From the NCBI GenBank assembly GCA_039803205.1, contig JBDRYB010000001.1, forward strand, positions 139,413 through 203,412: DNA of 64,000 bases, in the 5' to 3' direction. The first letter of the stretch is position 1, and each line of letters opens with the position of its first letter. Both the position numbers and the translations under genes were made by a program. This stretch comes from a candidate division WOR-3 bacterium (GTDB lineage: Bacteria > Hydrothermota > Hydrothermia > JBDRYB01). Below are positions 9,016 through 49,681 of this stretch, piece by piece. Under the pieces are notes generated by a model. That model had not been told where the DNA came from and made no database searches. It was given only the letters and a program-made list of their open reading frames with translations.

Positions 9016-9016
9016 C

Positions 9017-10456
9017 CTACCTCGTTATAACCAACTTCTTAACCCGCCAGATGTTCCCAGCGCTCAATCTGAGGAAATAGACCCCTGGATTGGATTTTGG
9101 AGAAAGATGTAGCTCGTGTGAACCCGGGCCAAGTTGCCCTGAGAACAACCCTTCGGCGAGCCTTCCATCGGACGAATAGAGGCTTATCTCAACCCGTGAT
9201 TCCTCATGGAGAGTGAGGGAGACCAGGGTGCTACCTCGGCAAGGGTTGGGCTCCGGGCCAAAAAGAACAGGCTCTTGGCGGGCAATCTCCTCGACGCCAG
9301 AGCTCTTTGATTGCATTAGCCTCATCATCCAATCCCCATATGTGTAGTTTGTCCAGCCGAGGTTGCTGAGGAAATACCAGCTCCTGCCATCCGTTGGCGG
9401 ATCGAAATCACACCCCACGCCAGGAGCCTCCGGGGTATCCGGTTGCCAGTGAGCGACGAGCCATATGTCCTGGGTTGATGGGAGATATATGGGCGGGTTT
9501 ATGGAGAACTCAGCCCAATCGCCTATGAAATTGTTTCCGTGCAGGTTGTATGTGATAAAGAGGGGATTGACTGTGTCGGGGAGGCCGCCCAGGTTCCGAC
9601 AAACCATCACATAGTCAAAGGATGTGCATGTGCTCACGAATATCCTGCCTTTTGTTATGTAAAGGGGAGGGCTTATTGTTGGGGTGAAACGGACTGCCAT
9701 CTTGTTGTTGTAGTAGTCAGCAGAGGGGATCATGAACTGATCCACTATGCCCTGGTCGTATATGATCTCGTATGTGACCCTGAAATCCTCCCTCAGTGTG
9801 TCGTTAGTTGGATAGAAGTCCTGGCTCAGGGCCGTTATGAGCTCAGCCGTGTATGTGCCCGTGTCCGACGGGGTCCACTGAGTTGCCAACTGCACCGCCT
9901 TCTGGGAGTCAGGCATGATGGGGGATGTGGTTGTATTGCCCGAATAGACCAAGCTTCCCCCGGGGGCGTAGATGTTGAGCCTCAAGGGTATCCCTTCGGT
10001 ATATGAGCCCTTGTTTCTAACTACAACGATAGGTTGAATGGGTATGTTGACGGAGTTCTCATAGTATGGCCAGAAGACATCCTCAGCCTGGGCATCGTGA
10101 TAACACCTCACATATATGAGAGCGGTGTCATCTCCGCCATAGCTGTCTCCGGATAGCTCGGTCCAGGCGTATGCCTTGTATGTGCCGAAAGCAGGGGGCG
10201 TCCAATTCGGTGAGAATGTTATGTCTATGTAGCCTCCTGGCTGAAGGTTGCTCACGCTTGAGGAGGATTGATATATGTTCTGGCCTCCGGAGCTATCAAT
10301 CTTGAAATACACGGGGAAAGATGCTGGCACATCCCCATAGTTCCTGAACCTTGCCTGGACCGGATACGGATTCCCCAGCTGGGCATACTGGCCCGGGGAA
10401 AGTATCCTCTCACAGCCCACATCGGGCGCTGAAAAAAGAACTATCCAAATCATCAT
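9017..10456 (-). CDS. Secreted protein with two CARDB-like Ig domains and T9SS-like CTD
   Basis: Repeated V-N-G..WTP..G.Y....D....ND units; PNP..YSSDGRL..GVYFLRL..KKL; SD GGAGGT before ATG 10456. Confidence 0.75.
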   Translation of the reverse strand: MMIWIVLFSAPDVGCERILSPGQYAQLGNPYPVQARFRNYGDVPASFPVYFKIDSSGGQNIYQSSSSVSNLQPGGYIDITFSPNWTPPAFGTYKAYAWTELSGDSYGGDDTALIYVRCYHDAQAEDVFWPYYENSVNIPIQPIVVVRNKGSYTEGIPLRLNIYAPGGSLVYSGNTTTSPIMPDSQKAVQLATQWTPSDTGTYTAELITALSQDFYPTNDTLREDFRVTYEIIYDQGIVDQFMIPSADYYNNKMAVRFTPTISPPLYITKGRIFVSTCTSFDYVMVCRNLGGLPDTVNPLFITYNLHGNNFIGDWAEFSINPPIYLPSTQDIWLVAHWQPDTPEAPGVGCDFDPPTDGRSWYFLSNLGWTNYTYGDWMMRLMQSKSSGVEEIARQEPVLFGPEPNPCRGSTLVSLTLHEESRVEISLYSSDGRLAEGLFSGQLGPGSHELHLSPKSNPGVYFLRLSAGNIWRVKKLVITR

Positions 10457-10476
10457 TACCTCCCAAAACTCGCCCA

Positions 10477-10510
10477 TTTTATAAACCGGAATCTGACACG
10501 AAGCTGACAC
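10477..10510 (-). promoter_or_regulatory. Direct-repeat (GTGTCAG-N4-GTGTCAG) promoter of the 9017 gene
   Basis: CTGACAC at 10493 and 10504 (11-bp period), followed on the minus strand by TATAAAAT. Confidence 0.45.
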
Positions 10511-10526
10511 AGCTTGTCCTGTGCCC

Positions 10527-12053
10527 TCAGAATCTCAGTATCTTCACGCTATAGGTTCCTCCCGGATGCCTTAGTAGGGCTATGAAAACCCCTCCGGTCT
10601 CAGCTTTGGGGGAAAAGCTATAGCTTCCCCCTTCCAGAACGCCATTGTAGATGTTTCGAACGAGCCTACCGCCCGTGTCATAAAGCGAAAGGGTTATCTC
10701 AAGGCTGGATGGCAGAAAGAGGTATAGGCCGTTTCCTTGGGGCCTGAATTCCAAGTTGGGGCGCCCTTTTACTTCACCAGTGCTCAAAACCTGGCCGCAC
10801 TCAGTGTTGTCCCCGGGGTCATCAAGCGCAAAGAAGGAATATCCGCTGGCATCCGGATGGGTTCCGACCACGATCTCGGCGCATCCATCATCATCTATAT
10901 CAGCGGGAACCGGCGAGTGAACATCCTCGGAGATGGGTTTTTTCCAGAGCAGAGAGCCGTCCCCCGCTCTCAAGCAATAAAGGGTATCGGGGTTAGCGCC
11001 CACATTCGGGACCAGGACCTCAAGCCCACCAACCCCATCCACATCAACGAGGGAAAGAGGGCAGTGAACGGGCTTTGCGGTCGTGAATTCCCATATTTTG
11101 ACCCCGTTTCTGTCCAGGCAATAGACCCTCTTGTCATAGCTCGCTGTTATGACCTCAGGGTAACCATCCCCATCGCAATCCCCGATAGCAGAGGAGGTTA
11201 TTATTATGTCGCCGGCTGTGAAGCTCCACTTCTGGGCTCCATCCGAACCCGCCAGGCAATAGAGCTTTCGGTCCTGAGAGCCTATTACAACCTCCACTCC
11301 TCCATCCTTATCCAGATCCGCAATCGCTGGAGAGCCATCAATCTGGCCCGTGGTCGCGAACTCCCACCTCCTTGTCCCGTCTGAGCCCGAAAGGCAATAG
11401 ACCTTACCATCGTAGCTCCCAAAAACGACCTCCATCATCCCGTCCCCATCGCAATCAGCAACGGCCGGGGATGAGCGCACTGAGCCGCCTGACCTGAATC
11501 TCCATTTTTTCGTGCCGTCTCCTGCTCTGAGGCAATAGAGAACGCTGTCCATGCTCCCTATGAGCACTTCAATCTCCCCGTCCCCGTCGCAATCGGCAAG
11601 GGCCGGAGAGGAATGGGTCTCGGCCCCTGGCGTGGTCTCGGATGACCACTGGAGAACGCCGGAAGCGCCATCAATGCAGAGTATGTATCCATAACCCCCG
11701 ACAACCACCTCCATCTGAGGGTCACCATCCAGCTGGGCTATGGCGGAGGATGAGCTCAGCTGAGCGCTATAAACATAGTATTTCCATTCCTCCGCACCTG
11801 TTGTCCCATCAAAGCAATGCAGATACCTGTCGTAGCTCAGGGCGAGAACCTCGGATTTTCCGTCATTGTCAACATCCCCCACAGCGGAGAACTGCCACTC
11901 AACCCAAGCGTTCGTGGGAAACCTCCACTTTACCACGGGTTCCGTGCTCATCGCGCCCTTCATGGTTTGAAGGGAATGGTGAGCTGGCTCTCCTCCCCAC
12001 ATGGGCCAGGTGCCGTAAACTGCCCCCAGAAGGGCCATTATTAAGTAAGGCAT
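10527..12053 (-). CDS. Secreted FG-GAP/PQQ-like beta-propeller with CTD (class A)
   Basis: SSPA-x-ADxDGDG..EV..GS.D...YCL..DG..KW.F repeats; start ATG 12053 with GGAGG. Confidence 0.85.
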   Translation of the reverse strand: MPYLIMALLGAVYGTWPMWGGEPAHHSLQTMKGAMSTEPVVKWRFPTNAWVEWQFSAVGDVDNDGKSEVLALSYDRYLHCFDGTTGAEEWKYYVYSAQLSSSSAIAQLDGDPQMEVVVGGYGYILCIDGASGVLQWSSETTPGAETHSSPALADCDGDGEIEVLIGSMDSVLYCLRAGDGTKKWRFRSGGSVRSSPAVADCDGDGMMEVVFGSYDGKVYCLSGSDGTRRWEFATTGQIDGSPAIADLDKDGGVEVVIGSQDRKLYCLAGSDGAQKWSFTAGDIIITSSAIGDCDGDGYPEVITASYDKRVYCLDRNGVKIWEFTTAKPVHCPLSLVDVDGVGGLEVLVPNVGANPDTLYCLRAGDGSLLWKKPISEDVHSPVPADIDDDGCAEIVVGTHPDASGYSFFALDDPGDNTECGQVLSTGEVKGRPNLEFRPQGNGLYLFLPSSLEITLSLYDTGGRLVRNIYNGVLEGGSYSFSPKAETGGVFIALLRHPGGTYSVKILRF

Positions 12054-12066
12054 CTCAAAAACCTCC

Positions 12067-13602
12067 CTATCTGAGAACCACTTTAGCCGTTCGCAAACCC
12101 CAAGGGCCTCTGAGAACACCAAGGTAGACCCCTTCTGCCTCAGGCCTTGGGATGAAGGTGTGTCCTCCGGGGCCCAAAGAGCCATTGTAGAGGTTCTGAC
12201 ACAATCGCCCTCCGGCATCGTAAAGCGCGAGGGAGATCTGGACCTCACTTGGAAGGAAGAGGTAAAGCCCGCGGCCTCTGGCTACGAAAAACGGCCCCTT
12301 CGCTTGGGTTTCTTCTTCCAGCTTAAGGGGCCCGCAACCTTGGGTGTTCGCGGGGTCATCAAGAGCGAAAAGGGAGTATCCGCCAGCGTCAGGATGGGTT
12401 CCCACAACTATCTCAATGCATTCATCCCCGTCTATGTCAGCCGGAAAAGGCGAGTGAACATCCGAGACAACCGCCTTCTTCCAGAGAACTGACCCGTTCT
12501 CCGCGTTCAGACAGACCAAGGTATCCGAGAGGGCGTTGGGGACGAGAAACTCAAGCTTGTTGTCCATGTCAACATCCGCCAGCGAGCCAGGGGTGTGAAC
12601 GCTTCCCATCTGGGTCTGATAGAACCACTTCATTGCTCCCCCTGAGCTTATGCAATAGACCCTGCCCTCCGGGTCCGTGTTTCCTATGATGACCTCCATC
12701 TGCCCGTCCCCGTCAACATCAGCAATTGCTGGAGATGACCTCAACGCGCTTCCGGTCGTGAACGCCCACTTCTGGGTTCCGTCTGACCCGCGCAGGCAAT
12801 AGACATTGTTGTCGCAACTGGCTATTATCACCTCCGTGAGCCCATCGCCATCAAGGTCCGCTATGGCAGGAGAACCATAAACATAGTGTCCTGTGTGGAA
12901 TTCCCACTTCTTGGTGCCTGATCCGCTGAGACAATAGACGCTGGAGTCAAGGCTCCCAAAAACAACCTCCATCGCGCCATCCCCGTCGCAATCCCCAACG
13001 GCGGGGGAGCTGAAGATGTAGCCACGGGCATTGAAACGCCACTTCTCAGAGCCATCAGAGCCCCTGAGACAGAAGAATATCCGATCAGCTGTGCCGAAGA
13101 GGACCTCCATGAAACCATCGCGGTCGCAATCAGCAACAGCGGGCGAAGAGTGCACCTGGAGGGTAGTTGCGAACCGCCATTCCTCGGCTCCTGTCCTTGC
13201 ATTTATACAATAAAGCTTGGGATACTCATCCGTGCCTATGAGGACCTCCAGCTCCCCGTCCCCATCGCAATCCGCGACAGTGGCTGAGGCACCTATGGTG
13301 CTGTATGGGTCGCCATCCATGGGAAATATCCAGCGAGGGGTTCCGGTGCTCCCATCCAGGCAATAAAGGTTCCTGTCAAGGCTCGCGGCTATCACCTCTG
13401 GCATCCCATCCCCGTCGCAATCAGCAACAGCCGAAAACTGCCACTCAACCCAGGCGTTCGTTGCGAGCATCCACTTGACAACGGGCTCAGAGCTCATGGC
13501 GCCACGCATGGTTTGGAAACCCGAATTGGAAAGGTCCCCTCCCCACATGGGCCAAAAGCCATAAACGGCACCTAAACAAACGGTTATGGTAAAGCAAAGC
13601 AT
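12067..13602 (-). CDS. Secreted FG-GAP/PQQ-like beta-propeller with CTD (class A)
   Basis: Same repeats and WPMWGG N-terminal motif; start ATG 13602 with GAGGAGG. Confidence 0.85.
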   Translation of the reverse strand: MLCFTITVCLGAVYGFWPMWGGDLSNSGFQTMRGAMSSEPVVKWMLATNAWVEWQFSAVADCDGDGMPEVIAASLDRNLYCLDGSTGTPRWIFPMDGDPYSTIGASATVADCDGDGELEVLIGTDEYPKLYCINARTGAEEWRFATTLQVHSSPAVADCDRDGFMEVLFGTADRIFFCLRGSDGSEKWRFNARGYIFSSPAVGDCDGDGAMEVVFGSLDSSVYCLSGSGTKKWEFHTGHYVYGSPAIADLDGDGLTEVIIASCDNNVYCLRGSDGTQKWAFTTGSALRSSPAIADVDGDGQMEVIIGNTDPEGRVYCISSGGAMKWFYQTQMGSVHTPGSLADVDMDNKLEFLVPNALSDTLVCLNAENGSVLWKKAVVSDVHSPFPADIDGDECIEIVVGTHPDAGGYSLFALDDPANTQGCGPLKLEEETQAKGPFFVARGRGLYLFLPSEVQISLALYDAGGRLCQNLYNGSLGPGGHTFIPRPEAEGVYLGVLRGPWGLRTAKVVLR

Positions 13603-13632
13603 GGCAAAAGCCTCCTCTTTTTCAATGCATGT

Positions 13633-13667
13633 ATTATTATGAAAAAATCTCCAAAAAATCTCCAAAT
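13633..13667 (-). promoter_or_regulatory. SARP-type direct-repeat promoter (copy 3)
   Basis: ATCTCCAAA at 13647 and 13658; minus strand TTTGGAGA-TTT-TTTGGAGA then TAATAAT. Confidence 0.7.
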
Positions 13668-13695
13668 ATCGCGCCCAAAGCCTCATGAAACAAGG

Positions 13696-13738
13696 GATCC
13701 CGGCCGCGCCAAGAGGTGCGTTTCACGCGACCGGGTCT
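13696..13738 (-). terminator. Intergenic hairpin with GCACCUC loop (hp1)
   Basis: CCCGGUCGCG/CGCGGCCGGG stem with a G-U pair on the minus strand, followed by CUUGUUUC. Confidence 0.6.
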
Positions 13739-13793
13739 GAGAGCTATCTCAGCGGATCAGCGGCATTTTCAGCAGTAAGGCTCCTTGGCATTT

Positions 13794-15362
13794 TCATCTT
13801 ACAACAGCCTTACCCTTAAACCCCTGCCCTCCTGCTATCCAGAAATAGACCCCTTGGCCAAGCGGGAACCAGCTTTTTCCTCGGATCAGTCGCTCAGAAC
13901 ACACGAGCCTGCCATCGCCGGAATAGACCCTGATGTCCGCGTCCTCATGGGATACAAAGAGAAGGCCGCCTGGGAGGGCAGTTGCGGTTATCCAATGTTG
14001 GGAAGGATTGTAGCCTTCCTCAACGCCCTCATAGAGGGCCTCGCAAAAGTTGGCCCTGTGGAGAGGGAGGTCAGAGACCGTCATAGATGCTGTTCTGTCT
14101 GTAACCGTGGGGGTCCAAGGGTTCGTGTTGTCGGTTACGGGAGTTGTGTTGACTGTCGGCACAGCTAAGTCAGGATAGCACGCCGGAACGCAGGCCCCAT
14201 AGCTATGGTTGCCGCTCGGGTCCAGCTTGAGAAGGAGGAGATCCCCTTTGGCCGCTCCCGCGCTCTGGGTCTGGCCAAAGATCGCGTAGCCGCCGTCCGA
14301 GGTTTGGACCACGGAATAGGCTATATCAGAACCAAGGCCTCCGCATGTCCTTGCCCAAACCATGTTCCCTTCAGGGCTGAGCCTAACAACAAAGAAATCG
14401 TCCGAGCCTGTCCCATAACTCGTTGTCTGACCAACGCAAACGAGCCCTCTGTCGGATGTCGGGGCCATTGACCAGAGGAGGTCCTGCCTCCCCCCTACCG
14501 AGCCACCCGCTAGCTTTGCCCAATTTCTCGTCCCATCAGGATTGAGCTTCAAGACGAGGAAATCGTTGTTGCCCGCGCTCGCGAGGGTATAAGCCCCGAC
14601 AAAAACCGTATCTCCAACACATCCTACGGAATAAGCGTAATCCGGAAAACTAGCGACCGTTGACCCAAAAGCCTCTGCCCATTCCCTGGAGCCATCGGAT
14701 CTCATCTTCAACACAAGGATCTCATAAGAACTAACTGAGCCGTAGCTCTTGGTCTCTCCAACGAGCACGAACCCTCCATCGCTGGTCTGAGCTATGGCGC
14801 GCCCTTTTTCGGACCCCGTGCCGCCGAAGGTCTTAGCCCAAACCAAAGACCCATCCGCATTCAGCTTGAGGGCGCAGAAATCCTCAGGGGTGCCAGCCGC
14901 GCTGACTATGAACCCACCGAGAGCGAATCCGCCTTCTGCGGTCCGGATCACCGAGTAGGCTTCCTCCGGTTGGGCCCCTCCGTATGTCTTTGCCCACAGG
15001 AGACCTCCGGAGGAGTTAAGCCTGAGAAGCATGATATCATAGCTGTTGAAGCTCAGGGTGAAACCCGCTATGACAAAACCCCCATCTGATGTCTGAGCTA
15101 TTGAATAACCCCTGTCTCCGCGGTCGTTCACGGTGGGAGAAAATCTCTTCGCCCACAGAACATCCCCGGCCGGGCTCAGCCTTACCGCGATGATGTCCTC
15201 GTATCCCGTGGCCTTTGTGTAACCAGTGAAGGCATACCCACCATCGGATGTCCTGATTAGGGAGCTAGGATAGCCCGTATAATCAGCCGAGTCGCTCCCA
15301 TACATCCAAGCGAAGGTGCTCTGTGAGGTCAAAATCCACGCTAACGCAAAAGCGCTCGTCAT
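13794..15362 (-). CDS. Secreted beta-propeller with W-x-K-T-x-GG repeats, Thr/Pro stalk and short CTD (class B)
   Basis: S-x2-QT-x-DGG(F/Y)..G.T.S.G....D....KL...G...WAKT.GG repeats; ends KGKAVVR. Confidence 0.8.
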   Translation of the reverse strand: MTSAFALAWILTSQSTFAWMYGSDSADYTGYPSSLIRTSDGGYAFTGYTKATGYEDIIAVRLSPAGDVLWAKRFSPTVNDRGDRGYSIAQTSDGGFVIAGFTLSFNSYDIMLLRLNSSGGLLWAKTYGGAQPEEAYSVIRTAEGGFALGGFIVSAAGTPEDFCALKLNADGSLVWAKTFGGTGSEKGRAIAQTSDGGFVLVGETKSYGSVSSYEILVLKMRSDGSREWAEAFGSTVASFPDYAYSVGCVGDTVFVGAYTLASAGNNDFLVLKLNPDGTRNWAKLAGGSVGGRQDLLWSMAPTSDRGLVCVGQTTSYGTGSDDFFVVRLSPEGNMVWARTCGGLGSDIAYSVVQTSDGGYAIFGQTQSAGAAKGDLLLLKLDPSGNHSYGACVPACYPDLAVPTVNTTPVTDNTNPWTPTVTDRTASMTVSDLPLHRANFCEALYEGVEEGYNPSQHWITATALPGGLLFVSHEDADIRVYSGDGRLVCSERLIRGKSWFPLGQGVYFWIAGGQGFKGKAVVR

Positions 15363-15372
15363 GATGACCCCC

Positions 15373-16881
15373 CTATTTTACGATAAACTTGATGGTTTTT
15401 GTCCCTCCGTTGCACCTGAGAACAGCAAGGTATATCCCTATGGATCGCAATCTTAGAATAAAGGTATGGTCCCCTGCCGAGAGGACCCCCTCATAGAGCC
15501 TCTGGACAGGCCTTCCTTCGGCATCATATAGGACGAGCGAAACCCAAGCGCTTTTCGGGAGGAAGAGTTGTATTCCATTTGGTATTGGTTTCATCTCAAA
15601 TCCACCAGACTCCTCCTGAAACCCTATTGGACTGCATCCCTGGGTGTTGCTGGGGTCATCAAGGGCGTATATCATGCCGAGGTTGTATGTTCCAACCAGG
15701 ACCTCAACGCAGTTATCCCCATCTATGTCAGCTGGAACGGGAGAGTGGACATCCCCGTCCGGGTTGGTAACAAAGAGGCGTCTCCTCCAAAGCGTGGTCC
15801 CGTTTTCAGCGTTCAAGCAAACGAGGGTATCCTTCGTATAGTTGGGCACGAGGAACTCAAGCTTCCCATCGTTATCAATGTCAACGAGCGCTCCTGGGGT
15901 GTGAACCTGGCCAGAACAATAACGGTTCCACCTCTCGGTTCCCGTATGATCAATGCAGTAAACATAGAGATCTTGAGAGCCTATGACGATATCAAGCTTG
16001 CCGTTACCATCAACATCCGCAATAGCAGGGGATCCGCTCACGGCGTTCGCTGTCCAGAATGTCCACTTCTGGGTTCCGTTTGAGCCCCTTATGCAGTGGA
16101 GATAACCATCATGGCTCCCTATTATCACCTCCATCTGGCCATCAGCATCAAGGTCAGCAACCGCCGGGGAGGAACGGACCTCTCCGCTCGTGGAATACAC
16201 CCATTTCTGTGCTCCGGTTTGACCCGAAAGGCAATAGACTTTCCCGTCAAAGCTTCCGAAGATAATCTCATGTTTCCCGTCCCCATCGCAGTCAGCAACA
16301 GCTGGCGATGAGGATACATTCGCGCCCGTGAGGAACTCCCACTTTTTCCCTCCATCTGTGCCCCTTAGGCAGTAGAGCCTATCGTCAAGGCTTCCTATTA
16401 CTACCTCAGTCTTGCCATCGCCATCCACATCCGCCAGAGCAGGAGAGGACATCACGGCGTCGCCTGTGGTATATGCCCACTTTTGGCTCCCGTCCGTGCC
16501 GCGGAGACAATAAACATTGTGGTCATAGCTCCCGAAGACGATCTCTATCTTCCCGTCTCCATCAACATCCCCTGCGGCCGGAGAGGATTGGATGAGGTTC
16601 CCGGTCCCAAACTTCCATTCTAAAGCCCCTGTTATCCCATTAAGGCAATAGAGGGTGTCGTTCCAACTGCCCATTACCACCTCGGCAATACCATCGCCAT
16701 CAACATCCCTCACTGAGGCGAACTGCCATTCAAATGGCCCTGATGTCCCGACGAAGAAATACCACTTTATGACAGGCGTTGTTGTCATGGCGCCGCGCAT
16801 GGTCTGGAAGCTCCTATGGCTAGGTTCACCTCCCCACATGGGCCAGATCCCGTGCACCTGGGCTAAGAGCAAAATCATCAT
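15373..16881 (-). CDS. Secreted FG-GAP/PQQ-like beta-propeller with CTD (class A)
   Basis: Same repeats; SD AGGAGG. Confidence 0.85.
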   Translation of the reverse strand: MMILLLAQVHGIWPMWGGEPSHRSFQTMRGAMTTTPVIKWYFFVGTSGPFEWQFASVRDVDGDGIAEVVMGSWNDTLYCLNGITGALEWKFGTGNLIQSSPAAGDVDGDGKIEIVFGSYDHNVYCLRGTDGSQKWAYTTGDAVMSSPALADVDGDGKTEVVIGSLDDRLYCLRGTDGGKKWEFLTGANVSSSPAVADCDGDGKHEIIFGSFDGKVYCLSGQTGAQKWVYSTSGEVRSSPAVADLDADGQMEVIIGSHDGYLHCIRGSNGTQKWTFWTANAVSGSPAIADVDGNGKLDIVIGSQDLYVYCIDHTGTERWNRYCSGQVHTPGALVDIDNDGKLEFLVPNYTKDTLVCLNAENGTTLWRRRLFVTNPDGDVHSPVPADIDGDNCVEVLVGTYNLGMIYALDDPSNTQGCSPIGFQEESGGFEMKPIPNGIQLFLPKSAWVSLVLYDAEGRPVQRLYEGVLSAGDHTFILRLRSIGIYLAVLRCNGGTKTIKFIVK

Positions 16882-16908
16882 AATTAAAGCCTCCTTTTGG
16901 AGATGGAT

Positions 16909-16943
16909 ATTTTAAGAGAAAATCTCCAAAAGATCTCCAAAAA
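16909..16943 (-). promoter_or_regulatory. SARP-type direct-repeat promoter (copy 2)
   Basis: ATCTCCAAAA at 16923 and 16934; -10 TAAAAT on the minus strand. Confidence 0.75.
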
Positions 16944-16960
16944 GACACCTTAAATTATTG

Positions 16961-17012
16961 AAAAAAACAAAGCCCCGGCCGTGTGGGAGGTGCGTTTCAC
17001 GCGACCGGGGCT
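16961..17012 (-). terminator. Intrinsic terminator with GCACCUCC loop (hp2)
   Basis: AGCCCCGG/CCGGGGCU stem followed by UUGUUUUUUU. Confidence 0.8.
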
Positions 17013-17019
17013 ATAAGGG

Positions 17020-18546
17020 TTATCTTATGAGCTTTGCTGTTTTTATTCCTCCTTGATATCTTAGAACACCAAGATAGATGCCGCCAGGCTTTACACCTGG
17101 GATAAATGTGTGCCCCCCTTTGCTCAGAAGCCCATCGTAAAGATCCAAGATCATCTTTCCGCCAACATCGTATAATCTCAAGGATACAATAGCATCGTTG
17201 GAAAGGAAGAGATAAAGCCCATTACCCAAAGCTCGGAACTCAAGCCCTCTCTCAGGCGCACCCTCCATCATATCAACCGGCCCACATCCCTGTGCGTTTC
17301 CGGGATCATCAAGAGCAAATATCCGGTATCCCTGAGCATCGGGATCAAGGGTTCCTACCATAATCTCTATACACCCATCACCGTCTATGTCTCCCGCGAA
17401 TGGGGAATGAACATCATAGGGTAGCGGCTTTTTCCAGAGAAGGGAACCATTCTCTCCGTTCAAACAATAGAGGGTATCCACAGCATTCTTAACATTTGGA
17501 ACCAGAACCTCAAACCGACCGTCACCCTCCACATCCGCGATACACAAGGGCGTATGGATATAGCCTCCCGTGGAATACGACCATTTCTGGGTTCCGTTTG
17601 AGCCTCTTAGACAATAGACCTTCTGATCCCAGCTCCCAACAACAACCTCAATAGCGCCATCGCGGTCCACATCCCCTATAGCGGGCGATGAACGCACGAG
17701 ATAACCGGTTGGGAACAACCATTTCAGTGCTCCGTTTGAACCTGAAAGGCAATAGACCTTATAATCCTCAGAACCAACAATCACCTCCAGGGCTCCGTCA
17801 GCATCAACATCCGCTATTGCTGGAGATGACCATACATAATCCCCTGGCGTAAAAGACCACTTCTCGCTACCATCAGAGCCCCTGAGGCAGTAGATCTTGT
17901 CGCTCCCAACTATGACCTCTTTTGCGCCGTCTCCATCCACATCTGCTGTGGCGGGTGAGGAACGAACATAACTGCTAGTTGCAAAAACCCATTTCTGGGT
18001 TCCATCGGATCCGCGCAGGCAATAGACTTTGCGATCGTCGGAACCAAAAACGACCTCCTTGGCCCCGTCGTTGTCTATGTCTTCCACAACAGGGGAGGAT
18101 TCAACCCAGTTGCCGGTTGGGAAGGCCCACTTCTGCGTCCCGTTTGATCCACGGATGCAATAGAGTTTATTGTCGTTTGAGCCAACTATAACCTCAAGAG
18201 CGCCGTCTCCATCCACATCTTCCACGCAGGGGGATGACTGCACATCGTTTCCTGTGGAAAAAACCCATTTCCCTGTTCCATCGAAGCCCCTGATACAATA
18301 AACCTTGTTGTCCCAGCTCCCCATTATAACCTCTGGTGCTCCGTCGCCATCGCAATCCGCTATGGCCGAACCCTGCCACTCAACCATTCCCTCGCTCGGG
18401 CCGGTCAGGAATCTCCATTTTACGACGGGTTCGGTGCCCATGGCACCGGACATAGATTGAAGGCCCTGATGGCACGGATCGCTCCCCCACATGGGCCATG
18501 AACCATAGTCTGCCCCCATACATACGGCTATGCTAAAATAAAACAT
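17020..18546 (-). CDS. Secreted FG-GAP/PQQ-like beta-propeller with CTD (class A)
   Basis: Same repeats and CTD. Confidence 0.85.
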   Translation of the reverse strand: MFYFSIAVCMGADYGSWPMWGSDPCHQGLQSMSGAMGTEPVVKWRFLTGPSEGMVEWQGSAIADCDGDGAPEVIMGSWDNKVYCIRGFDGTGKWVFSTGNDVQSSPCVEDVDGDGALEVIVGSNDNKLYCIRGSNGTQKWAFPTGNWVESSPVVEDIDNDGAKEVVFGSDDRKVYCLRGSDGTQKWVFATSSYVRSSPATADVDGDGAKEVIVGSDKIYCLRGSDGSEKWSFTPGDYVWSSPAIADVDADGALEVIVGSEDYKVYCLSGSNGALKWLFPTGYLVRSSPAIGDVDRDGAIEVVVGSWDQKVYCLRGSNGTQKWSYSTGGYIHTPLCIADVEGDGRFEVLVPNVKNAVDTLYCLNGENGSLLWKKPLPYDVHSPFAGDIDGDGCIEIMVGTLDPDAQGYRIFALDDPGNAQGCGPVDMMEGAPERGLEFRALGNGLYLFLSNDAIVSLRLYDVGGKMILDLYDGLLSKGGHTFIPGVKPGGIYLGVLRYQGGIKTAKLIR

Positions 18547-18561
18547 AACAGAAGCTTCGTT

Positions 18562-20112
18562 TCATCTGATTATCTTTATCGTCCTTATGTTTCCTTCTGC
18601 CTTCATTACCGCTAGATAGACTCCGCGGGAACTGATTTCGGGAAGAAACACATGGTCCCCGGATGCCATCTCTCCATCCCAGAGTATCTGAGTCAGCCTG
18701 CCTGAGGAGTCGTAGAGCTTCAAGGAGACCTGACCGGATGATGGCAAGTGAAGATGGATGGCGGGGCCCATTGGAATGAAGAGAACATCCTCGGGCGAGC
18801 CCTCCTCAGCTGTAACGACCCCGCAGTTTGATGAGCCTCCCACATCATCAAGCGCGTATACCTTGGAATCCCCGCAACCGACGATTATTTCAATACACCC
18901 ATCGTTGTCTATGTCCGCTGGAATAGGGGATTGCACATTCGGCCCAAGGGCCTTTTTCCAGAGAACAGAGCCGTTTTCGCCGTTCAAGCAGAAGAGGGTA
19001 TCCTCAGGCGCGCCTGAAACCCTCGTTCCAGCCAGAACCTCAAGCTTCCCATCCTTATCTATGTCTGCGAGGGAGACAGGGGTTGATACAGACGCGAGCA
19101 TTGGTGAGAGGTAGTTGCTCCACTTTATTGCCCCCGTCGCGCCGTTCAGGCAATACACATATCCGTTCAGGCTCCCCACGCAAACCTCCATAGCACCGTC
19201 CCCGTCGCAATCGCCGACTGCGGGAGACGATTGAACATCCCCGGATAGCTTCTGGCTCCACTTCTTTGTTCCGTCAGTTCCCCTCAGACAGAATATTGAA
19301 TCGCAATCAGAACCCACTATCACCTCTATGTCAGTTCCGCCGTCAACATTGAAGATCACAGGGGATGACTCCACCCACGAGGAGGGCGAGCTGCTCGTGA
19401 GATACTCCCATTTTTTCGTCCCGTCCGTTCCCCTTAGGCAATAGACCTTGTAGTCGTTTGCGCCCCAGACCACTTCCATCTTCCCATCGCCGTCCACATC
19501 TCCAACAGCCGGAGACGAGCGGGACTGATATATGATCACGAATTCCCATTCTACCGCGCCCGTAGCACCATTCAGCGCGAAGCACTTGGGACAGCCTGAG
19601 CATGTTGTCATGCTGGTAAAAACAATCTCCTTTTGGCCGTCACCATCCACATCGGCAATCGCTGGCCCAGACCATATTATCCCCTCGCTCGGGCCCAGAT
19701 AATTGAACCATTCTCTGGCCCCAGTAGCGCCGTTCAGACAGAATACCGTGTCCCCATCATTCCCAAAGACAACCTCTATCGCGCCATCTCCGTCCACATC
19801 CCCGACGGCAGGAGAGCTCCTTATCTTGCTCCTCGTGGAATAGCTCCACTTCTGAGCCCCGGTAATTCCGTTTATGCAATAGATGTGACAATCCATGGAT
19901 CCCACTATAACCTCTGGGAGTCCGTTCCCATCGCAATCAGCGACCGCTGAGAACTGCCATTTCACTGTGTCCCCTGTGGTGAACTGCCATTTCACATTGG
20001 GAGCCGTGCTCATCGCGCCCTTCATGGTCTGGAGAGCCTGGTGAGCTGGCTCGCCTCCCCACATGGGCCATGAACCGTAAACAGCACCTATGCATATGAC
20101 AAAGCTAAACAT
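18562..20112 (-). CDS. Secreted FG-GAP/PQQ-like beta-propeller with CTD (class A)
   Basis: Same repeats; SD AAAGGAGG. Confidence 0.85.
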   Translation of the reverse strand: MFSFVICIGAVYGSWPMWGGEPAHQALQTMKGAMSTAPNVKWQFTTGDTVKWQFSAVADCDGNGLPEVIVGSMDCHIYCINGITGAQKWSYSTRSKIRSSPAVGDVDGDGAIEVVFGNDGDTVFCLNGATGAREWFNYLGPSEGIIWSGPAIADVDGDGQKEIVFTSMTTCSGCPKCFALNGATGAVEWEFVIIYQSRSSPAVGDVDGDGKMEVVWGANDYKVYCLRGTDGTKKWEYLTSSSPSSWVESSPVIFNVDGGTDIEVIVGSDCDSIFCLRGTDGTKKWSQKLSGDVQSSPAVGDCDGDGAMEVCVGSLNGYVYCLNGATGAIKWSNYLSPMLASVSTPVSLADIDKDGKLEVLAGTRVSGAPEDTLFCLNGENGSVLWKKALGPNVQSPIPADIDNDGCIEIIVGCGDSKVYALDDVGGSSNCGVVTAEEGSPEDVLFIPMGPAIHLHLPSSGQVSLKLYDSSGRLTQILWDGEMASGDHVFLPEISSRGVYLAVMKAEGNIRTIKIIR

Positions 20113-20142
20113 GATCTAAACCTCCTTTCGTTCACGGCCTTT

Positions 20143-20176
20143 ATCTTAGAGAAAAATCTCCAAAAGATCTCCAAAA
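20143..20176 (-). promoter_or_regulatory. SARP-type direct-repeat promoter (copy 1)
   Basis: ATCTCCAAAA at 20156 and 20167; -10 TAAGAT 8 bp after the proximal TTGGAGA. Confidence 0.75.
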
Positions 20177-20254
20177 ACCACACCAAACCAAGGTGAAACA
20201 AGGGGAAAATATGGGTGGTTGACCATGGTTTTTCATGGGCAATAAAATATTCGG

Positions 20255-21838
20255 GTGAGGGATGTTGAGCTTTTTGAACGCGGACTTGAACTCTTCAACG
20301 CCAACAGAATAGCGGAATTCCAGGAATTCTTGCGGCAGATGAGGGAAGAGAACCCTCCGGTAGCATCCCTTTTGGAGATCCACCATGCCCTTCTTAGCCA
20401 CAATCCGGCAATAGTTCTCAGGAAGGCCAAGAGGATGTTCTCAACCTTCTCGGGGAAACCAGAACTAGCGGTAAGATTCTACATGAGGATGGGGGTGGCG
20501 CAAAAGATGATCGGGGAAATAGGCCTCTCAGACAGTTACTTTGCCAGGGCAAAGGAGCTCGCTGAGAAGATTGGGGACAGCCCAGCGGTAGAACACGCGA
20601 GGGTGGAGCTCCTTTACAACAGGTTCATGAAACAGGAATACGATTCCCTCTATAAGGACCTCGCTGGGCTAGACCCATCCGACCCCTTGTTTGATCATCG
20701 GCACATCAAGTTCATAATGGCCATGATCCTCGTGGTGCAAGGTGAGATAGGGAAGGCAAAAAGGCTCCTGGATTTGTTGGTGAGGTCTGATAGGGTGGGG
20801 GAATACATGAGGATTAGTATCCTTGAGATCAGGGGCATCATATCTAGGCTGGAAGGGAACCTTAATGAAGCTGTTGAGCTTTATGAGGAATCAGCAGAGG
20901 GTTACCTCTCTTTGGGATCGGCTTATGCCGCATTTCCTTGTGCGAAAGCGCTCCAGATAACCCGTCTCGCCAACATCAAACCTCCTCCTGGTGCCCTAAT
21001 AAAAAGATGTCTGAGAACGGCCAACAAAGGAGGCTGGGGGGAACAGGCCGCGGGGAAAGAGATTGAAGCACTGCTAACCGAGGATGAAGGCGAGGCCGCG
21101 CTCCGGCTATTTGAGGCCGCCAAAGGCTATTACAGGGTATATCAGAACATAGAGTCGGTCATGGCCGGGCTTCTGGCTAGCTACCTGGCCTGGAAAGTGA
21201 ATCATCCGGTCTTCATGGATGCCATGAGGTTCCTGGGGCCCATGCTCCCGCTTTATCCTGGGTTGAAAAAAGACCCAATAATAGGGGATTTCATGACCAG
21301 GGCAGAGGCTTTTCTTAGAGGAGAACAGAGGAATACCAAAAGGGGAATTAGGGCTTGGCTCATAGGCGACCTGAGAGTGGAGGTGAACGGTTCAGAGCTC
21401 TCCGTAACCAGATGGGGGAGCAAGCAAGCCATGATGGCGTTCATATACCTTCTGCTCTCCCCGAGGCACAGGATCCCCCAGGATCACCTGTTTTACCTTC
21501 TGTGGCCTAAAAAACCGTATACTTCAGAAACAAGAAGCCTGCTTTATCGCGTGATGAGCATCCTGAGAAAGAATCTCAGCGGCTCATTCCTGGTCAAGAG
21601 GGGGGATTTCTATCAGCTTGAGGATGTCTGGACTGATCTTGAAGAGATTGAGGACCTCATCCGAAAGGCCGAGGGGGCTGGTGATCCCCAGAAGACCAAA
21701 GAGCTCCTCTTTCTGGCCGGGGAGCTGGCAAAGGGGGAACTCTTGCCAGAATTTCCCTATGATCCCTATATTGAGGAATACAGGGGTTATTACGAGGGCC
21801 TCAAAAGGAGGATAGCCCGTGGGTCTAGTAAACCGTGA
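20255..21838 (+). CDS. Transcriptional regulator: N-terminal TPR-like region, C-terminal SARP-type wHTH + BTAD-like domain
   Basis: LIGDLRVEVNG..W.S..A...IYLLL...IP.D.L...LWP..L...LRK.L..FYQL..VWTD..E..GELLPE; leaderless promoter TTGACC-18-TAAAAT. Confidence 0.8.
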   Translation: MRDVELFERGLELFNANRIAEFQEFLRQMREENPPVASLLEIHHALLSHNPAIVLRKAKRMFSTFSGKPELAVRFYMRMGVAQKMIGEIGLSDSYFARAKELAEKIGDSPAVEHARVELLYNRFMKQEYDSLYKDLAGLDPSDPLFDHRHIKFIMAMILVVQGEIGKAKRLLDLLVRSDRVGEYMRISILEIRGIISRLEGNLNEAVELYEESAEGYLSLGSAYAAFPCAKALQITRLANIKPPPGALIKRCLRTANKGGWGEQAAGKEIEALLTEDEGEAALRLFEAAKGYYRVYQNIESVMAGLLASYLAWKVNHPVFMDAMRFLGPMLPLYPGLKKDPIIGDFMTRAEAFLRGEQRNTKRGIRAWLIGDLRVEVNGSELSVTRWGSKQAMMAFIYLLLSPRHRIPQDHLFYLLWPKKPYTSETRSLLYRVMSILRKNLSGSFLVKRGDFYQLEDVWTDLEEIEDLIRKAEGAGDPQKTKELLFLAGELAKGELLPEFPYDPYIEEYRGYYEGLKRRIARGSSKP

Positions 21839-23651
21839 ACTTCCTGGTAAGGCAACCCCACCGTGAGCACATCCTCAGGAAATAGACCCCCTGGCTCAGG
21901 CTGGAAACCGGAACCCTGAGCTCATGCCTGCCAGCGCTGGCATAACCCGAAAGGACATCGTAAATCAGCCTCCCTGAGACATCATATATCCTCAGGGTAA
22001 TCTCACCATCTTCCGGAATTGAGTATGAAACTGGAAGGTCCCCGCGGACCGGGTTGAGGGTAACCCTCAGAGATAGCAAGCCCTCTTCCGGAGGGCTCTC
22101 GGCAAGCTCCGTGTAGCGTATCTTCTTGAGGACCCACTCCCCTGGGTCAACCAAAAGGGTCTCTGGCCGGAACTGCACGAGCCAGCTGAAGCGCTCGGCC
22201 CGCTCGTTGACCCAGACCGTATCCCGGAATGTATCCGGCGCGTGAACCATCATTATCTCAACTGGCATGATGAAAACGGGCGCGTTTTGCTGAACCTGAT
22301 TGAGATATAGGTTCACCTCGTATTTGCCCCCTAGATCACGAGCGAACCAGTTGTAATAAAACTCAGGATAGCCTGCTTCGTAGATCCACTCCCGAAAGAA
22401 CCAGTCCAAGGATGAGCCATAAACAGCCTCGGCCTCAGCCTGGAAGTCCGGAATGGTTGCTGTGCCGCCGCCGTAGGCGTTCCGGTAGTTCTTCAGGGTG
22501 GTGAAGAACCCCTGATCCCCCATGACCCATCTGAGCATGTGAAGCACCCACGCGCCCTTCTTGTAGACCGTGTAGCCCCACATGTATTCGGCGGGGGGAT
22601 CGTAAATCGGGAATCTGGCCTGCGCGTCCTCGGAGAAATAAAGGTTCTTGAAGGACCTCATGACGCTGTCGCGCTTCGGAACCCCCCCAATGTGCTCAGC
22701 GTAAAGGGCCTCGCAGTATGAGGCAAAACCCTCGTTCAACCATACATGCGGCCAGTCCTGGCAGGTTACCCAATCCCCCCACCACTGGTGGCTGAGCTCG
22801 TGCGCGTATGTCAGGATATGCCGGCCATCTCCGGTGATCCAGTATGATCCCAAAGCAACCATGGTCTGGTGCTCAAGCGCGAACCCCCCTCCCCAGAGGT
22901 TGCTCTGCGCGTATCCGAACTTCTCGCTCCTGAAAGGGTAATCCCCGAAAACCGAGGAGAAGTAGTCCAGCATGTCAGGAACACTCTGAACATCCGCTCG
23001 CATCTTGTCCTCAAACAGGTTAAACGGGTAATACCACAGCGGCATGCCTTGCCAGGAGTCCGTGAACTTGGCATACTTATCCGAGGCTGAAACAGCAACG
23101 AGGTAATTGGCAATGGGGTAATGGACTGACCAGTAGAAGGTCTTCCAGTCCCCTTGATCATCCACCGAATCAAGGGTCCCATTCGCGGCCAGATCAAATC
23201 CCTTCGGGACCGTGTATGCGAAACGAGCGCTATCCGCCTTGTCTCCGTTGTGGTCGTAACAGGGATACCACTGGTGAGCGTCCTTGACGCCATCAGGGGA
23301 GAGACAGGCCGAGAAGGCGCCCCAATAGTTGAAATAAAGCCCAGCGGTTGGATGGCCGTGGTAAAATACCTCAAGGGTAAAATCCTGCGGAACAGGGCCT
23401 CGGACCCAGACGGTATCATCCCTCCTGGTAAAATCAGCCAACAAGCCGTTGAGCCTGATGCTGTCTATGTTTAGCGCTGAGCCGAGGTGAAAGTCCACAG
23501 AATCAAGGGCTGAAATAGCGCGGCCTTTTATTTCGCCCATACCGAAGATGGTGTCCGGAACGGGGTCCAATGTCAAATAGATCCCGTAAAATCCCACATC
23601 GTAGGAATGGGGAAAAACCTGCGAGAGAAAGGCTAAAAACAATCCGGTCAT
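21825..23651 (-). CDS. Secreted M1-family aminopeptidase with CTD
   Basis: FALEHQT, HELSHQWWG, WLNEGFA, YKKGA; CTD NP..YDVSGRL..GVYFLR. Confidence 0.9.
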   Translation of the reverse strand: MTGLFLAFLSQVFPHSYDVGFYGIYLTLDPVPDTIFGMGEIKGRAISALDSVDFHLGSALNIDSIRLNGLLADFTRRDDTVWVRGPVPQDFTLEVFYHGHPTAGLYFNYWGAFSACLSPDGVKDAHQWYPCYDHNGDKADSARFAYTVPKGFDLAANGTLDSVDDQGDWKTFYWSVHYPIANYLVAVSASDKYAKFTDSWQGMPLWYYPFNLFEDKMRADVQSVPDMLDYFSSVFGDYPFRSEKFGYAQSNLWGGGFALEHQTMVALGSYWITGDGRHILTYAHELSHQWWGDWVTCQDWPHVWLNEGFASYCEALYAEHIGGVPKRDSVMRSFKNLYFSEDAQARFPIYDPPAEYMWGYTVYKKGAWVLHMLRWVMGDQGFFTTLKNYRNAYGGGTATIPDFQAEAEAVYGSSLDWFFREWIYEAGYPEFYYNWFARDLGGKYEVNLYLNQVQQNAPVFIMPVEIMMVHAPDTFRDTVWVNERAERFSWLVQFRPETLLVDPGEWVLKKIRYTELAESPPEEGLLSLRVTLNPVRGDLPVSYSIPEDGEITLRIYDVSGRLIYDVLSGYASAGRHELRVPVSSLSQGVYFLRMCSRWGCLTRKFTVY

Positions 23652-49627: not shown

Positions 49628-49681
49628 GATCAGCGGCAGAACTTGACTTCGTCTGAAGGTATGCCTTAAAATTAATTTCTC

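What the first reader, a model, noticed from the sequence alone, without database searches (positions are those of the whole stretch)
13633..20176. Three copies of a TTTGGAGA direct-repeat promoter split locus 1 into two-gene units
Seen: ATCTCCAAA pairs with an 11-bp period at 13647/13658, 16923/16934 and 20156/20167. Each lies 8-9 bp upstream (minus strand) of a TAAnAT/TAATAA -10 and replaces the -35. The units are 18562+17020, 15373+13794 and 12067+10527, and the first two end in hairpins. Established: SARPs such as ActII-ORF4, DnrI and AfsR bind direct repeats with 11-bp periodicity ending ~8 bp from the -10. Inference: these are the operators of the regulator at 20255.
Basis: partly seen in the sequence, partly recalled or inferred. 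Interest (0 to 1): 0.8.

Follow-up and report, generated by a model that had tools for sequence, protein, structure and literature searches.

The report
Private SARP-like activator boxes, three promoters
Three promoters in a row carry the same pair of short DNA repeats one helical turn apart, very probably the docking site of the neighbouring regulator, which is one of about twenty such private regulator-and-site pairs in this uncultured hot-spring bacterium.

Summary
TTTGGAGAT occurs as an 11-bp tandem at 13647/13658, 16922/16933 and 20156/20167 (minus strand). The heptamer TTGGAGA ends 8 bp before a -10-like hexamer, and these are the only three exact copies in the 2.3-Mb genome. The neighbouring 527-aa protein (20255-21838) has no Pfam hit, but its C-terminal 170 residues fold like the SARP domains of AfsR and EmbR: a winged helix plus the first three BTA helices. 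Its N-terminus is a TPR solenoid. The genome holds about 20 paralogs; 16 of 20 have their own, different 11-bp-period repeat 40-105 bp upstream, against 2.2 % of random windows. In 26 such promoters the proximal repeat ends 8±1 bp from the -10. Orthologs in other metagenomes keep the same box core. The boxes drive T9SS-tailed beta-propeller genes. The regulators themselves have canonical TTGAnn-N18-TAnAAT promoters, which their targets lack. Best reading (about 0.8): SARP-type activator boxes of the adjacent regulator, dividing the locus into three two-gene units. This is a new variant of a known kind: the SARP-like domain is C-terminal, its BTA is truncated, and the host is WOR-3. Binding, activation and transcription starts are untested. 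The scan had already noted the same system in another window of this genome.

The parts
20156..20175 (-). Box P1: two TTTGGAGAT repeats, 11-bp period, in the divergent region between the regulator and unit 1
20143..20148 (-). -10-like TAAGAT of P1, 8 bp after the heptamer TTGGAGA; ATG of gene 1 at 20112
   Evidence: sequence reading; TSS not mapped
17020..20112 (-). Unit 1: two FG-GAP/PQQ-type beta-propeller genes with T9SS sorting tails (20112-18562, 18546-17020)
16961..17012 (-). Intrinsic terminator after unit 1: 11-bp GC stem followed by a U-run
   Evidence: -27 kcal/mol, z -4.6
16922..16941 (-). Box P2: two TTTGGAGAT repeats, 11-bp period
16909..16914 (-). -10-like TAAAAT of P2; ATG of gene 3 at 16881
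13794..16881 (-). Unit 2: an FG-GAP propeller gene (16881-15373) and a delta-60/SBBP-repeat propeller gene (15362-13794)
13699..13735 (-). Hairpin after unit 2; its left arm shares a 22-nt block with the unit-1 terminator; weaker U-tract
13647..13666 (-). Box P3: two TTTGGAGAT repeats, 11-bp period
13634..13641 (-). -10 region of P3: TAATAA at the same spacing as P1 and P2, overlapping CATAAT; ATG of gene 5 at 13602
10527..13602 (-). Unit 3: two FG-GAP propeller genes (13602-12067, 12053-10527)
20255..21838 (+). Regulator R01, 527 aa: TPR-like solenoid (1-358), OmpR-type winged helix (about 365-460), three BTA-like helices (461-525)
20219..20248 (+). The regulator's own promoter, TTGACC-N18-TAAAAT, ending 6 nt before the GTG start (probably leaderless)
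10489..10510 (-). Foreign box (GTGTCAG core, the type of a paralog on another contig) plus a -10, starting 17 nt after the stop of unit 3; drives gene 7 (about 10456-9017). It marks the end of the R01 regulon

Best explanation
The three TTTGGAGAT tandems are the private operator boxes of the adjacent regulator at 20255-21838. That protein is a one-component sensor-activator. Its N-terminal TPR solenoid (Rap- or MalT-domain-III-like by fold) presumably receives a signal. Its C-terminal SARP-like domain binds DNA. By analogy with AfsR, two protomers would sit head-to-tail on the two 11-bp repeats on one face of the helix. They would cover about -39 to -20, occupy the place of the missing -35 element, and recruit RNA polymerase to the good -10. 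Each box starts a separate two-gene transcript for exported (T9SS-tailed) beta-propeller proteins, and terminator hairpins close units 1 and 2. One regulator therefore switches three promoters and six genes together. Shown here: the sequence geometry, the fold, the family-wide pairing of box with regulator, and the conservation of boxes. Inferred: binding, activation, the position of the TSS, the signal, and the contact with RNA polymerase.
For: Motif and geometry. The box is unique in the genome. The register is family-wide: in 26 promoters aligned on the -10, positions -17 to -9 repeat the base 11 nt upstream in 69-100 % of cases, falling to 31 % at -7. This matches the SARP rule quoted in PMC10936776. 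Fold: the full-length model has pLDDT 92.8 and the C-terminal model 91.4. The top six Foldseek hits are AfsR 8k60/8hvr (TMq 0.71, 167-169 columns, 25-26 % identity, E 5e-7 to 3e-6) and EmbR 2ff4/2fez (TMq 0.69-0.70). OmpR/PhoB domains align over only about 87 columns at E >= 0.15. Sequence link: there is a weak AfsR NCBIfam hit at residues 359-511 (E 0.0028). Trans_reg_C is found in 11 of 19 paralog C-termini. The domain profile reaches proteins of which 16 of 16 sampled carry Pfam BTAD. Pairing: 20 paralogs. 16 of 20 have a >=8/9 period-11 repeat within 260 nt upstream, against 2.2 % of 3000 random windows. Each repeat has a different sequence and points away from its regulator. Box cores are kept by orthologs in other assemblies: the R06 type in 5 loci at 66-78 % identity, the R09 type in 2 at 75-76 %, the R19 type in 1 at 57 %, while the flanks differ. 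Unlinked extra copies of several boxes sit at further propeller promoters. Internal control for the -35: 16 of 20 regulators have TAnnnT 5-7 nt before the start codon, most of them with TTGAnn 17-18 nt upstream of it (my reading). The targets lack this. The boxes are 19-20/20 identical although the downstream proteins are 44-49 % identical.
Against: No experiment has been done, and no RNA data are available. R01 itself has no Pfam hit. The BTA part has only three helices. It lacks the helices alpha4-alpha7 which in AfsR seat sigma region 4 and touch the alpha-CTD, so the contact with polymerase cannot be the same. Pfam BTAD is found in 0 of 19 paralog C-termini. Whole-helix identity does not significantly predict box similarity among the 18 paralogs tested: Spearman 0.14, reached by 134 of 2000 permutations. 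Box and regulator are adjacent, so their co-inheritance in orthologs is partly expected from linkage alone. The 70 %-identical orthologs of R01 (P0002, P0003) could not be fetched, so conservation of this particular box is untested. Four of 20 paralogs lack a significant box (7/9 matches arise by chance in 17 % of windows). Some SARPs are listed as repressors in the review's table.
Confidence: 0.8

Rival explanations
1. The boxes are bound by the adjacent regulator, but it acts as a repressor or a dual regulator. Sitting over the -35 region, it would block RNA polymerase until a signal releases it.
For: The box overlaps the core promoter. The review's table lists at least one SARP as a repressor. 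The truncated BTA lacks the AfsR surfaces that contact sigma and alpha-CTD.
Against: The target promoters have no -35-like hexamer, whereas the regulators' own promoters do. Without an activator they should therefore be weak. The fixed 8±1-bp register to the -10 in 26 promoters is the activating SARP geometry; a repressor would not need such an exact phase.
Confidence: 0.1
2. The repeats are recognised by some other factor and not by the neighbouring protein, for example a response regulator of the OmpR/PhoB type, or polymerase itself using the distal repeat as an odd -35.
For: PhoB-type proteins also use 11-bp direct repeats in place of a -35 (recalled knowledge). At P3 the scan pairs the distal TGGAGA with CATAAT at a 17-nt spacing.
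Against: The repeat sequence differs at every paralog's locus and follows the neighbouring regulator across genomes. At P1 and P2 the distal TGGAGA would lie 19 nt from the -10. The exact box occurs nowhere else in the genome.
Confidence: 0.06
3. The repeats are passive leftovers of a duplicated promoter-plus-terminator cassette and have no regulatory role of their own.
For: P2 and P3 share a 22-nt identical hairpin block as well as the repeats, so some copying of intergenic cassettes has happened.
Against: P1 lacks that hairpin yet has the identical box. The flanks of the box are diverged and the genes are 44-49 % identical. The same architecture, with other sequences, recurs at 16 of 20 paralogs and in other assemblies.
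Confidence: 0.04

Closest known systems
SARP domain of AfsR (Streptomyces coelicolor) on the afsS promoter (PDB 8hvr, 8k60; PMC10936776)
   Same: The fold is an OmpR-type winged helix plus helices packed on it: TMq 0.71, 25-26 % identity. The site is two 11-bp direct repeats at about -40 to -19 that overlap a poor or absent -35, with the 3' repeat 8 bp from the -10 (one search compared).
   Different: The AfsR SARP domain is N-terminal and is followed by NOD and TPR domains. Its BTA has seven helices, of which alpha3-alpha7 hold sigma R4 and which also contacts the alpha-CTD. Here the domain is C-terminal, only three BTA-like helices exist, no NTPase domain is present, and the host is WOR-3, not an actinomycete.
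Small SARPs (ActII-ORF4, DnrI, RedD; review PMC10972967, passages read) and EmbR (PDB 2fez, 2ff4)
   Same: They are pathway-private activators encoded beside their targets, and they use heptameric direct repeats that overlap the -35. EmbR aligns over 174-176 columns, TMq 0.69-0.70.
   Different: [quoted passage not shown] Their targets are antibiotic clusters, not exported propeller proteins.
Uncharacterised database proteins with TPR + Trans_reg_C + full BTAD at the C-terminus (P0089, P0092, 610-630 aa) and STAND-TPR-SARP proteins of about 1060 aa (P0112, P0116, P0129)
   Same: The domain order is the same, sensor first and SARP domain last. They are found with this family's C-terminal profile at E 1e-23 to 1e-13.
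   Different: They keep a BTAD of about 135-145 positions that Pfam recognises. This family ends about 85-100 residues earlier. I found no paper on them with the searches.
PhoB and the pho box (PDB 1gxp; mechanism recalled, not read here)
   Same: Winged-helix protomers bind head-to-tail on 11-bp direct repeats that replace the -35. The PhoB effector domain aligns over 87 columns.
   Different: PhoB is a phosphorylated response regulator. No receiver domain is present here, and the helices after the wing are absent in PhoB.

Membership tests
SARP family | OmpR/PhoB-type winged-helix DNA-binding (ODB) domain | tested here: met
   The models show a beta-sheet, three helices and a beta-hairpin. 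Pfam Trans_reg_C is found in 11 of 19 paralog C-termini, though not in R01 itself.
SARP family | Full BTA domain (seven helices, Pfam PF03704) after the ODB | tested here: not met
   Only three helices (461-525) follow the wing. Pfam BTAD is found in 0 of 19 paralogs. All 56 aligned homologs end at the same point. The three helices do align with the first BTA helices of AfsR and EmbR.
SARP family | SARP domain at the N-terminus, as in the small, medium and large SARPs of the review | tested here: not met
   The domain occupies residues about 360-527 of 527.
SARP family | Target sites are direct repeats at 11 or 22 bp, with the 3' repeat 8 bp from the -10, overlapping the -35 | tested here: met
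   for the three promoters and for 26 promoters. The rule itself is quoted from PMC10936776.
SARP family | Demonstrated DNA binding and transcription activation | not testable with these tools
   This needs EMSA or footprinting, in vitro transcription or a reporter assay.
OmpR/PhoB response regulators | N-terminal receiver domain | tested here: not met
   No Response_reg hit was found; there are only weak TPR hits. The model is an all-helical solenoid over residues 1-358.
MalT/LAL and large-SARP STAND regulators | STAND/NB-ARC NTPase module | tested here: not met
   No NTPase family appears in Pfam or NCBIfam. The N-terminal part resembles only MalT domain III (1hz4, TMt 0.58).
RRNPP (Rap/NprR/PlcR) peptide-sensing regulators | TPR peptide-binding domain with an N-terminal HTH or phosphatase module | tested here: inconclusive
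   The N-terminal solenoid matches Rap proteins (4gyo, 8rtc, 8rsv; TMt 0.54-0.58, rmsd 7-9 A). That is generic TPR likeness. No N-terminal HTH is present and no peptide gene was sought.

The most novel reading that the evidence does not exclude
The roughly 20 regulator-and-box pairs form a natural set of mutually orthogonal one-component switches. Each TPR sensor would read a different ligand or peptide, and each would turn on its own subset of a large T9SS-exported propeller repertoire. The truncated SARP domain would activate by a route that differs from AfsR's. The TPR solenoid, not BTA helices alpha4-alpha7, would make the contact with sigma or alpha-CTD. Regulators such as the GTGTCAG type would also control unlinked promoters and their own gene.
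Probability: 0.3. Interest if true: 0.8.

Novelty: new variant of a known kind. Interest (0 to 1): 0.6.

Why it matters
SARP-type activation is known as an actinomycete device for antibiotic clusters. Here the same promoter geometry and DNA-binding fold appear in an uncultured WOR-3 bacterium. The domain order is inverted, the activation domain is cut to three helices, and there is a roughly 20-fold paralog expansion in a 2.3-Mb genome with a private 22-bp box for each copy. This offers a compact natural library of probably orthogonal activator and promoter pairs. It gives a test of how much of the BTA domain is needed to replace a -35 element. It also gives a handle on how this lineage controls its very large T9SS secretome (125 sorting-tail matches). 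For annotation, the boxes define operon starts and regulons in a genome without cultured relatives.

Tried and rejected
(1) RNA evidence for transcription starts: no RNA holder was listed for window 13400-20400.

(2) Sequence-only assignment of the regulator gave only noise or TPR matches. This covers Pfam at E<=10, phmmer against PDB sequences, and the full-length and C-terminal profiles against PDB sequences. The link to SARPs came from the fold and from the large profile search.

(3) Conservation of this particular box with R01 orthologs could not be tested. The two same-genus genomes have no R01 ortholog (best identity 44-46 %) and no such tandem. The metagenome scan returned only paralog-level relatives at 36-44 % identity. 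The 70 %-identical proteins P0002 and P0003 could not be placed on DNA.

(4) A scan of genome contigs for the exact tandem found 22 hits in unrelated taxa and none beside a relative of the regulator. Their number is of the order I estimate for chance in 596 Gb; that estimate is my own and was not computed by a tool. I rejected these hits as uninformative.

(5) A statistic for recognition-helix against box covariation among 18 paralogs was not significant: Spearman 0.14, reached by 134 of 2000 permutations. Only individual groups show the link.

(6) A sigma-54 or ECF-type promoter was considered from the sequence and rejected. There is no GG/GC -24/-12 pair at the right spacing, and the box sequence differs between loci.

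(7) Rfam found no match in 9000-20400 at E<=1, so the shared hairpin is not a known RNA family.

(8) The single TTTGGAGAT at 39411 lies in GC-rich, coding-like sequence and is taken as chance.

The comparison was repeated with boxes extracted by the script itself.
Full report
OBSERVATION.

On the minus strand the 9-mer TTTGGAGAT stands twice, 11 bp apart, at three places: 13647/13658, 16922/16933 and 20156/20167. The pattern TTGGAGAT-N3-TTGGAGAT has three exact matches in the window. With up to 3 mismatches there are 5 matches against 0.82 expected, and none of 100 shuffles reaches 5. In the organism's own assembly (2,316,562 bases, 50 contigs) these three are the only matches without a mismatch.

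Seven bases after GGAGAT, which is 8 bp after the heptamer TTGGAGA, come TAAGAT, TAAAAT and TAATAA. An AGGAGG-type ribosome site and the ATG of a gene follow 25-35 nt further on. An alignment of the three regions shows the tandem plus the T-run and the -10 as the longest invariant block.

GENES AND UNITS.

The minus strand carries six genes of about 500 codons each: 20112-18562, 18546-17020, 16881-15373, 15362-13794, 13602-12067 and 12053-10527. Five are FG-GAP/PQQ-type beta-propellers and one (15362-13794) is a delta-60/SBBP-repeat propeller. Several reach the T9SS sorting-domain model at the C-terminus.

Gaps inside the pairs are 10-15 bp. Gaps between pairs are 138 and 191 bp, and each of these holds a hairpin and then the box. 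The hairpin after unit 1 is a clear intrinsic terminator: an 11-bp GC stem, -27 kcal/mol, z -4.6, then a U-run. The hairpin after unit 2 has the same kind of stem (-33.5 kcal/mol for the stretch, z -2.6) but a poorer U-tract. The two hairpins share an identical 22-nt block that occurs only twice in the genome. No Rfam family matches.

Seventeen bases after the stop of the sixth gene a different tandem begins (core GTGTCAG, 11-bp period, then a -10). It drives the seventh gene, 9017 to about 10456.

The first genes of the three units are only 44.5-48.6 % identical as proteins, yet the 20-nt tandems are 19-20/20 identical. Selection on the repeats explains that; recent copying does not.

THE REGULATOR.

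The 527-aa protein at 20255-21838 has no Pfam family at E<=0.01 and only faint TPR matches at E<=10. NCBIfam gives one weak hit: residues 359-511 against positions 23-175 of the AfsR model, E 0.0028.

Its 68 relatives in the 5.8-billion-protein collection are almost all about 525 aa long. Where they are named, the source is candidate division WOR-3. One is labelled AfsR/SARP family and one carries Trans_reg_C.

AlphaFold2 with 56 homologs gives a confident model (pLDDT 92.8, pTM 0.74). It has a helical solenoid at 1-358, then a three-stranded sheet, three helices and a beta-hairpin at 365-460, then three helices at 461-525. Modelled alone with the 19 paralogs of the same genome, the C-terminal domain gives pLDDT 91.4. 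Its six best Foldseek hits in the PDB are all SARP domains: AfsR in two RNA-polymerase-promoter complexes (8k60, 8hvr; TMq 0.71, 167-169 columns, 25-26 % identity, E 5e-7 to 3e-6) and EmbR (2ff4, 2fez; TMq 0.69-0.70). OmpR/PhoB effector domains match only the 87-column winged helix, at E >= 0.15. The N-terminal solenoid resembles Rap pheromone receptors and MalT domain III (TMt 0.54-0.58). That is no more than TPR-class likeness.

A profile of the C-terminal domain was run over 1.84 billion representatives. It finds 28 proteins at E<=1e-30 (this family's layout), 188 at E<=1e-10 and 5564 at E<=0.001. Of 16 sampled hits between 4e-23 and 3e-13, all 16 carry Pfam BTAD, mostly right after Trans_reg_C. 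The domain is therefore a diverged SARP domain by sequence as well.

It is not a full one. According to the AfsR paper the BTA domain has seven helices. The first three stand on the DNA-binding domain, helices 3-7 seat sigma region 4, and the domain also touches the alpha-CTD (PMC10936776, passages read). Here only three helices exist. All 56 aligned homologs stop at the same place, and Pfam BTAD is found in none of the 19 paralog C-termini.

THE FAMILY-WIDE TEST.

The same genome encodes 20 full-length paralogs at 28-46 % identity. One more lies in this window, at about 49682-51250. I labelled them R01 (this one) to R20.

Exact 8-mers repeated at period 11 are about twice as frequent genome-wide as at periods 10 or 13: 112 positions against 53 and 56. 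Many of them lie just upstream of a paralog.

For 16 of the 20 paralogs the best repeat within 260 nt upstream of the start codon matches at 8 or 9 of 9 positions at period 11; 7 of the 20 match 9/9. Only 2.2 % of 3000 random 260-nt windows reach 8/9, and 0.13 % reach 9/9. In one search, where periods 9-13 competed, period 11 won in 16 of 20. The other four (R07, R11, R18, R20) have at best 7/9, which chance gives in 17 % of windows. R07 and R11 are nevertheless followed by TATAA(T/A) at the right distance.

Every box has a different sequence, points away from its regulator, and is followed by a TATAAT-like hexamer. I aligned 26 such promoters on that hexamer: the 16 adjacent ones plus unlinked copies found with up to 4 mismatches. 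Positions -17 to -9 repeat the base 11 nt upstream in 69-100 % of the promoters. This drops to 62 % at -8 and 31 % at -7. The proximal repeat thus ends 8±1 bp from the -10.

[quoted passage not shown] In the AfsR complex the box spans -40 to -19 and its upstream repeat lies over the -35.

INTERNAL CONTROL FOR THE -35.

The regulators' own upstream regions show canonical promoters. For R01 this is TTGACC, 18 nt, TAAAAT, ending 6 nt before the GTG. By my reading, 16 of the 20 paralogs have a TAnnnT hexamer 5-7 nt before the aligned ATG/GTG, and most of these have TTGAnn 17-18 nt upstream of it. Two things follow. The regulators are probably translated from leaderless mRNAs. And this organism does use a TTGAnn -35, which the target promoters lack; repeat sequence stands in its place.

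OTHER GENOMES.

Among 40 relatives searched, the family was found (E<=1e-20) only in the 2 genomes of the same genus, with 14 and 5 matches, and in 0 of 38 genomes from other families of the class. None of them has the TTGGAGAT tandem.

Eight full-length metagenome loci all show a period-11 repeat of at least 7/9 upstream, and 7 of the 8 reach 8/9 or better. External regulators that are clear orthologs of one of this genome's paralogs keep that paralog's box core while the flanks differ:
- R09 type, GCTTAGGC: 2 loci at 75-76 % identity.
- R06 type, GTGTCAGA: 3 metagenome loci at 66-78 % identity with the tandem, plus 2 same-genus loci at 66-69 % that show the core or a variant next to the regulator's -35.
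- R19 type, TTTACAG: 1 locus at 57 % identity.

L041 is 55 % identical to R16 and has a different box. L045 has an R02-like box and a similar recognition helix, although R02 is not among its three best matches, which are all about 51 % identical.

Because box and gene are adjacent, linkage alone explains part of this. The stronger points are the conservation of the cores against diverged flanks and the unlinked box copies.

A crude statistic of helix identity against box similarity among 18 paralogs is not significant: Spearman 0.14, with 134 of 2000 permutations at least as high.

TARGETS.

Of the 26 box promoters, the first gene downstream is a homolog of the window's FG-GAP propellers in 13 and of its delta-60 propeller in 7 (blastp E<1e-5). 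The other six are as follows:
- Three copies of a 611-aa family whose tails match the T9SS sorting model.
- Gene 7 of this window, which has a T9SS tail only.
- A 400-aa protein with a tail-like match only.
- A 139-aa ORF that precedes propeller genes.

The genome has 125 matches to the T9SS sorting-domain model.

MECHANISM.

Best reading, confidence about 0.8. R01 is made at a basal level from its own sigma-70-type, probably leaderless promoter. When active, two protomers bind the two repeats of each box head-to-tail, stand in for the -35 contact, and recruit polymerase to the -10. Three two-gene transcripts for exported propellers are then switched together.

The geometry, the fold, the pairing and the conservation are shown. 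Binding, the sign of regulation, the TSS, the signal and the polymerase contact are inferred. Because BTA helices 4-7 are missing, the contact cannot copy AfsR's. The TPR solenoid may take that role, but this is speculation.

Rivals, none excluded by experiment:
- Repression by the same protein (0.1).
- Recognition by another factor or by sigma itself (0.06).
- A passive duplication relic (0.04).

COMPARISON AND NOVELTY.

Proteins with TPR or STAND modules in front of a C-terminal Trans_reg_C-BTAD do exist in sequence databases. My searches found no paper on them or on this family. 0 papers hold both 'candidate division WOR-3' and 'SARP'. The 9 papers are all about actinomycete SARPs by title and abstract start. 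These searches cover only the held library.

I class the system as a new variant of a known kind.

The scan noted the same system earlier in another window of this genome (e1-363656, e1-363657, e1-363655). My analysis was finished before I read those notes and agrees with them. Specific to this finding are four points: one regulator serves three tandem promoters; the regulon ends at a box of another paralog; the leaderless, -35-bearing regulator promoters serve as an internal control; and there are numerical controls.

LIMITS.

No RNA run holds the region, so no TSS could be checked. The 70 % orthologs of R01 could not be placed on DNA. Supplementary files of the papers were not consulted. The AfsR paper and the review were read as passages found by term search, not in full.

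Noticed in passing
window 20219-20257 (+), and 19 paralog loci in the genome: The regulator genes look leaderless. A TAnnnT -10 ends 5-7 nt before the aligned ATG/GTG in 16 of 20 paralogs by my reading, most of them with TTGAnn 17-18 nt upstream of it and no Shine-Dalgarno sequence.
   Followed up: partly
window 10489-10510 (-): A box of another paralog's type (GTGTCAG core) sits upstream of gene 7 (9017 to about 10456). Its cognate regulator is on another contig. The same box type stands at two further unlinked promoters, so that paralog has a dispersed regulon.
   Followed up: partly
window about 49608-51250: A second family member (R15, about 49682-51250, + strand) has its own 11-bp-period box (TGTTCTAG core, about 49608-49627, - strand). 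The box lies ahead of four delta-60-type propeller genes on the minus strand.
   Followed up: partly
loci L036, L040, L044, L047, L048 and G000 contig C22 near 26736: In the GTGTCAG-type regulators the tandem directly abuts the regulator's own -35, in reverse orientation, and no divergent gene follows. This may be an autoregulatory site.
   Followed up: no
window 13713-13734 and 16987-17008 (-): An identical 22-nt block forms the left arm and inner loop of both inter-unit hairpins, although the genes before them are unrelated. It occurs only twice in the genome and has no Rfam match.
   Followed up: partly
window 16890-16904 and 20371-20379: Two single copies of the 9-mer lie on the + strand. 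One sits between the -10 and the ribosome site of P2, where its complement can pair with the Shine-Dalgarno sequence (flagged as a small hairpin). The other lies inside the regulator's coding sequence.
   Followed up: no
whole genome G000: There are 125 matches to the T9SS sorting-domain model TIGR04183 in a 2.3-Mb genome, which is an unusually large predicted secretome. The T9SS machinery genes themselves were not sought.
   Followed up: no
G000 contigs C16 (start) and C38: One paralog's box (TCTTTCAG core) occurs at four promoters: one beside the regulator at the start of C16 and three on C38. The two contigs are probably neighbours, forming another multi-promoter locus like this one.
   Followed up: no
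window 21825-23651 (-): A gene for an M1-family peptidase with a T9SS sorting tail converges on the regulator, and its 3' end overlaps the regulator's by 14 bp.
   Followed up: no
G000 contig C1 from 139315 up to the window start: A run of N about 100 bases long lies directly before the window start, either an assembly gap or a masked stretch.
   Followed up: no
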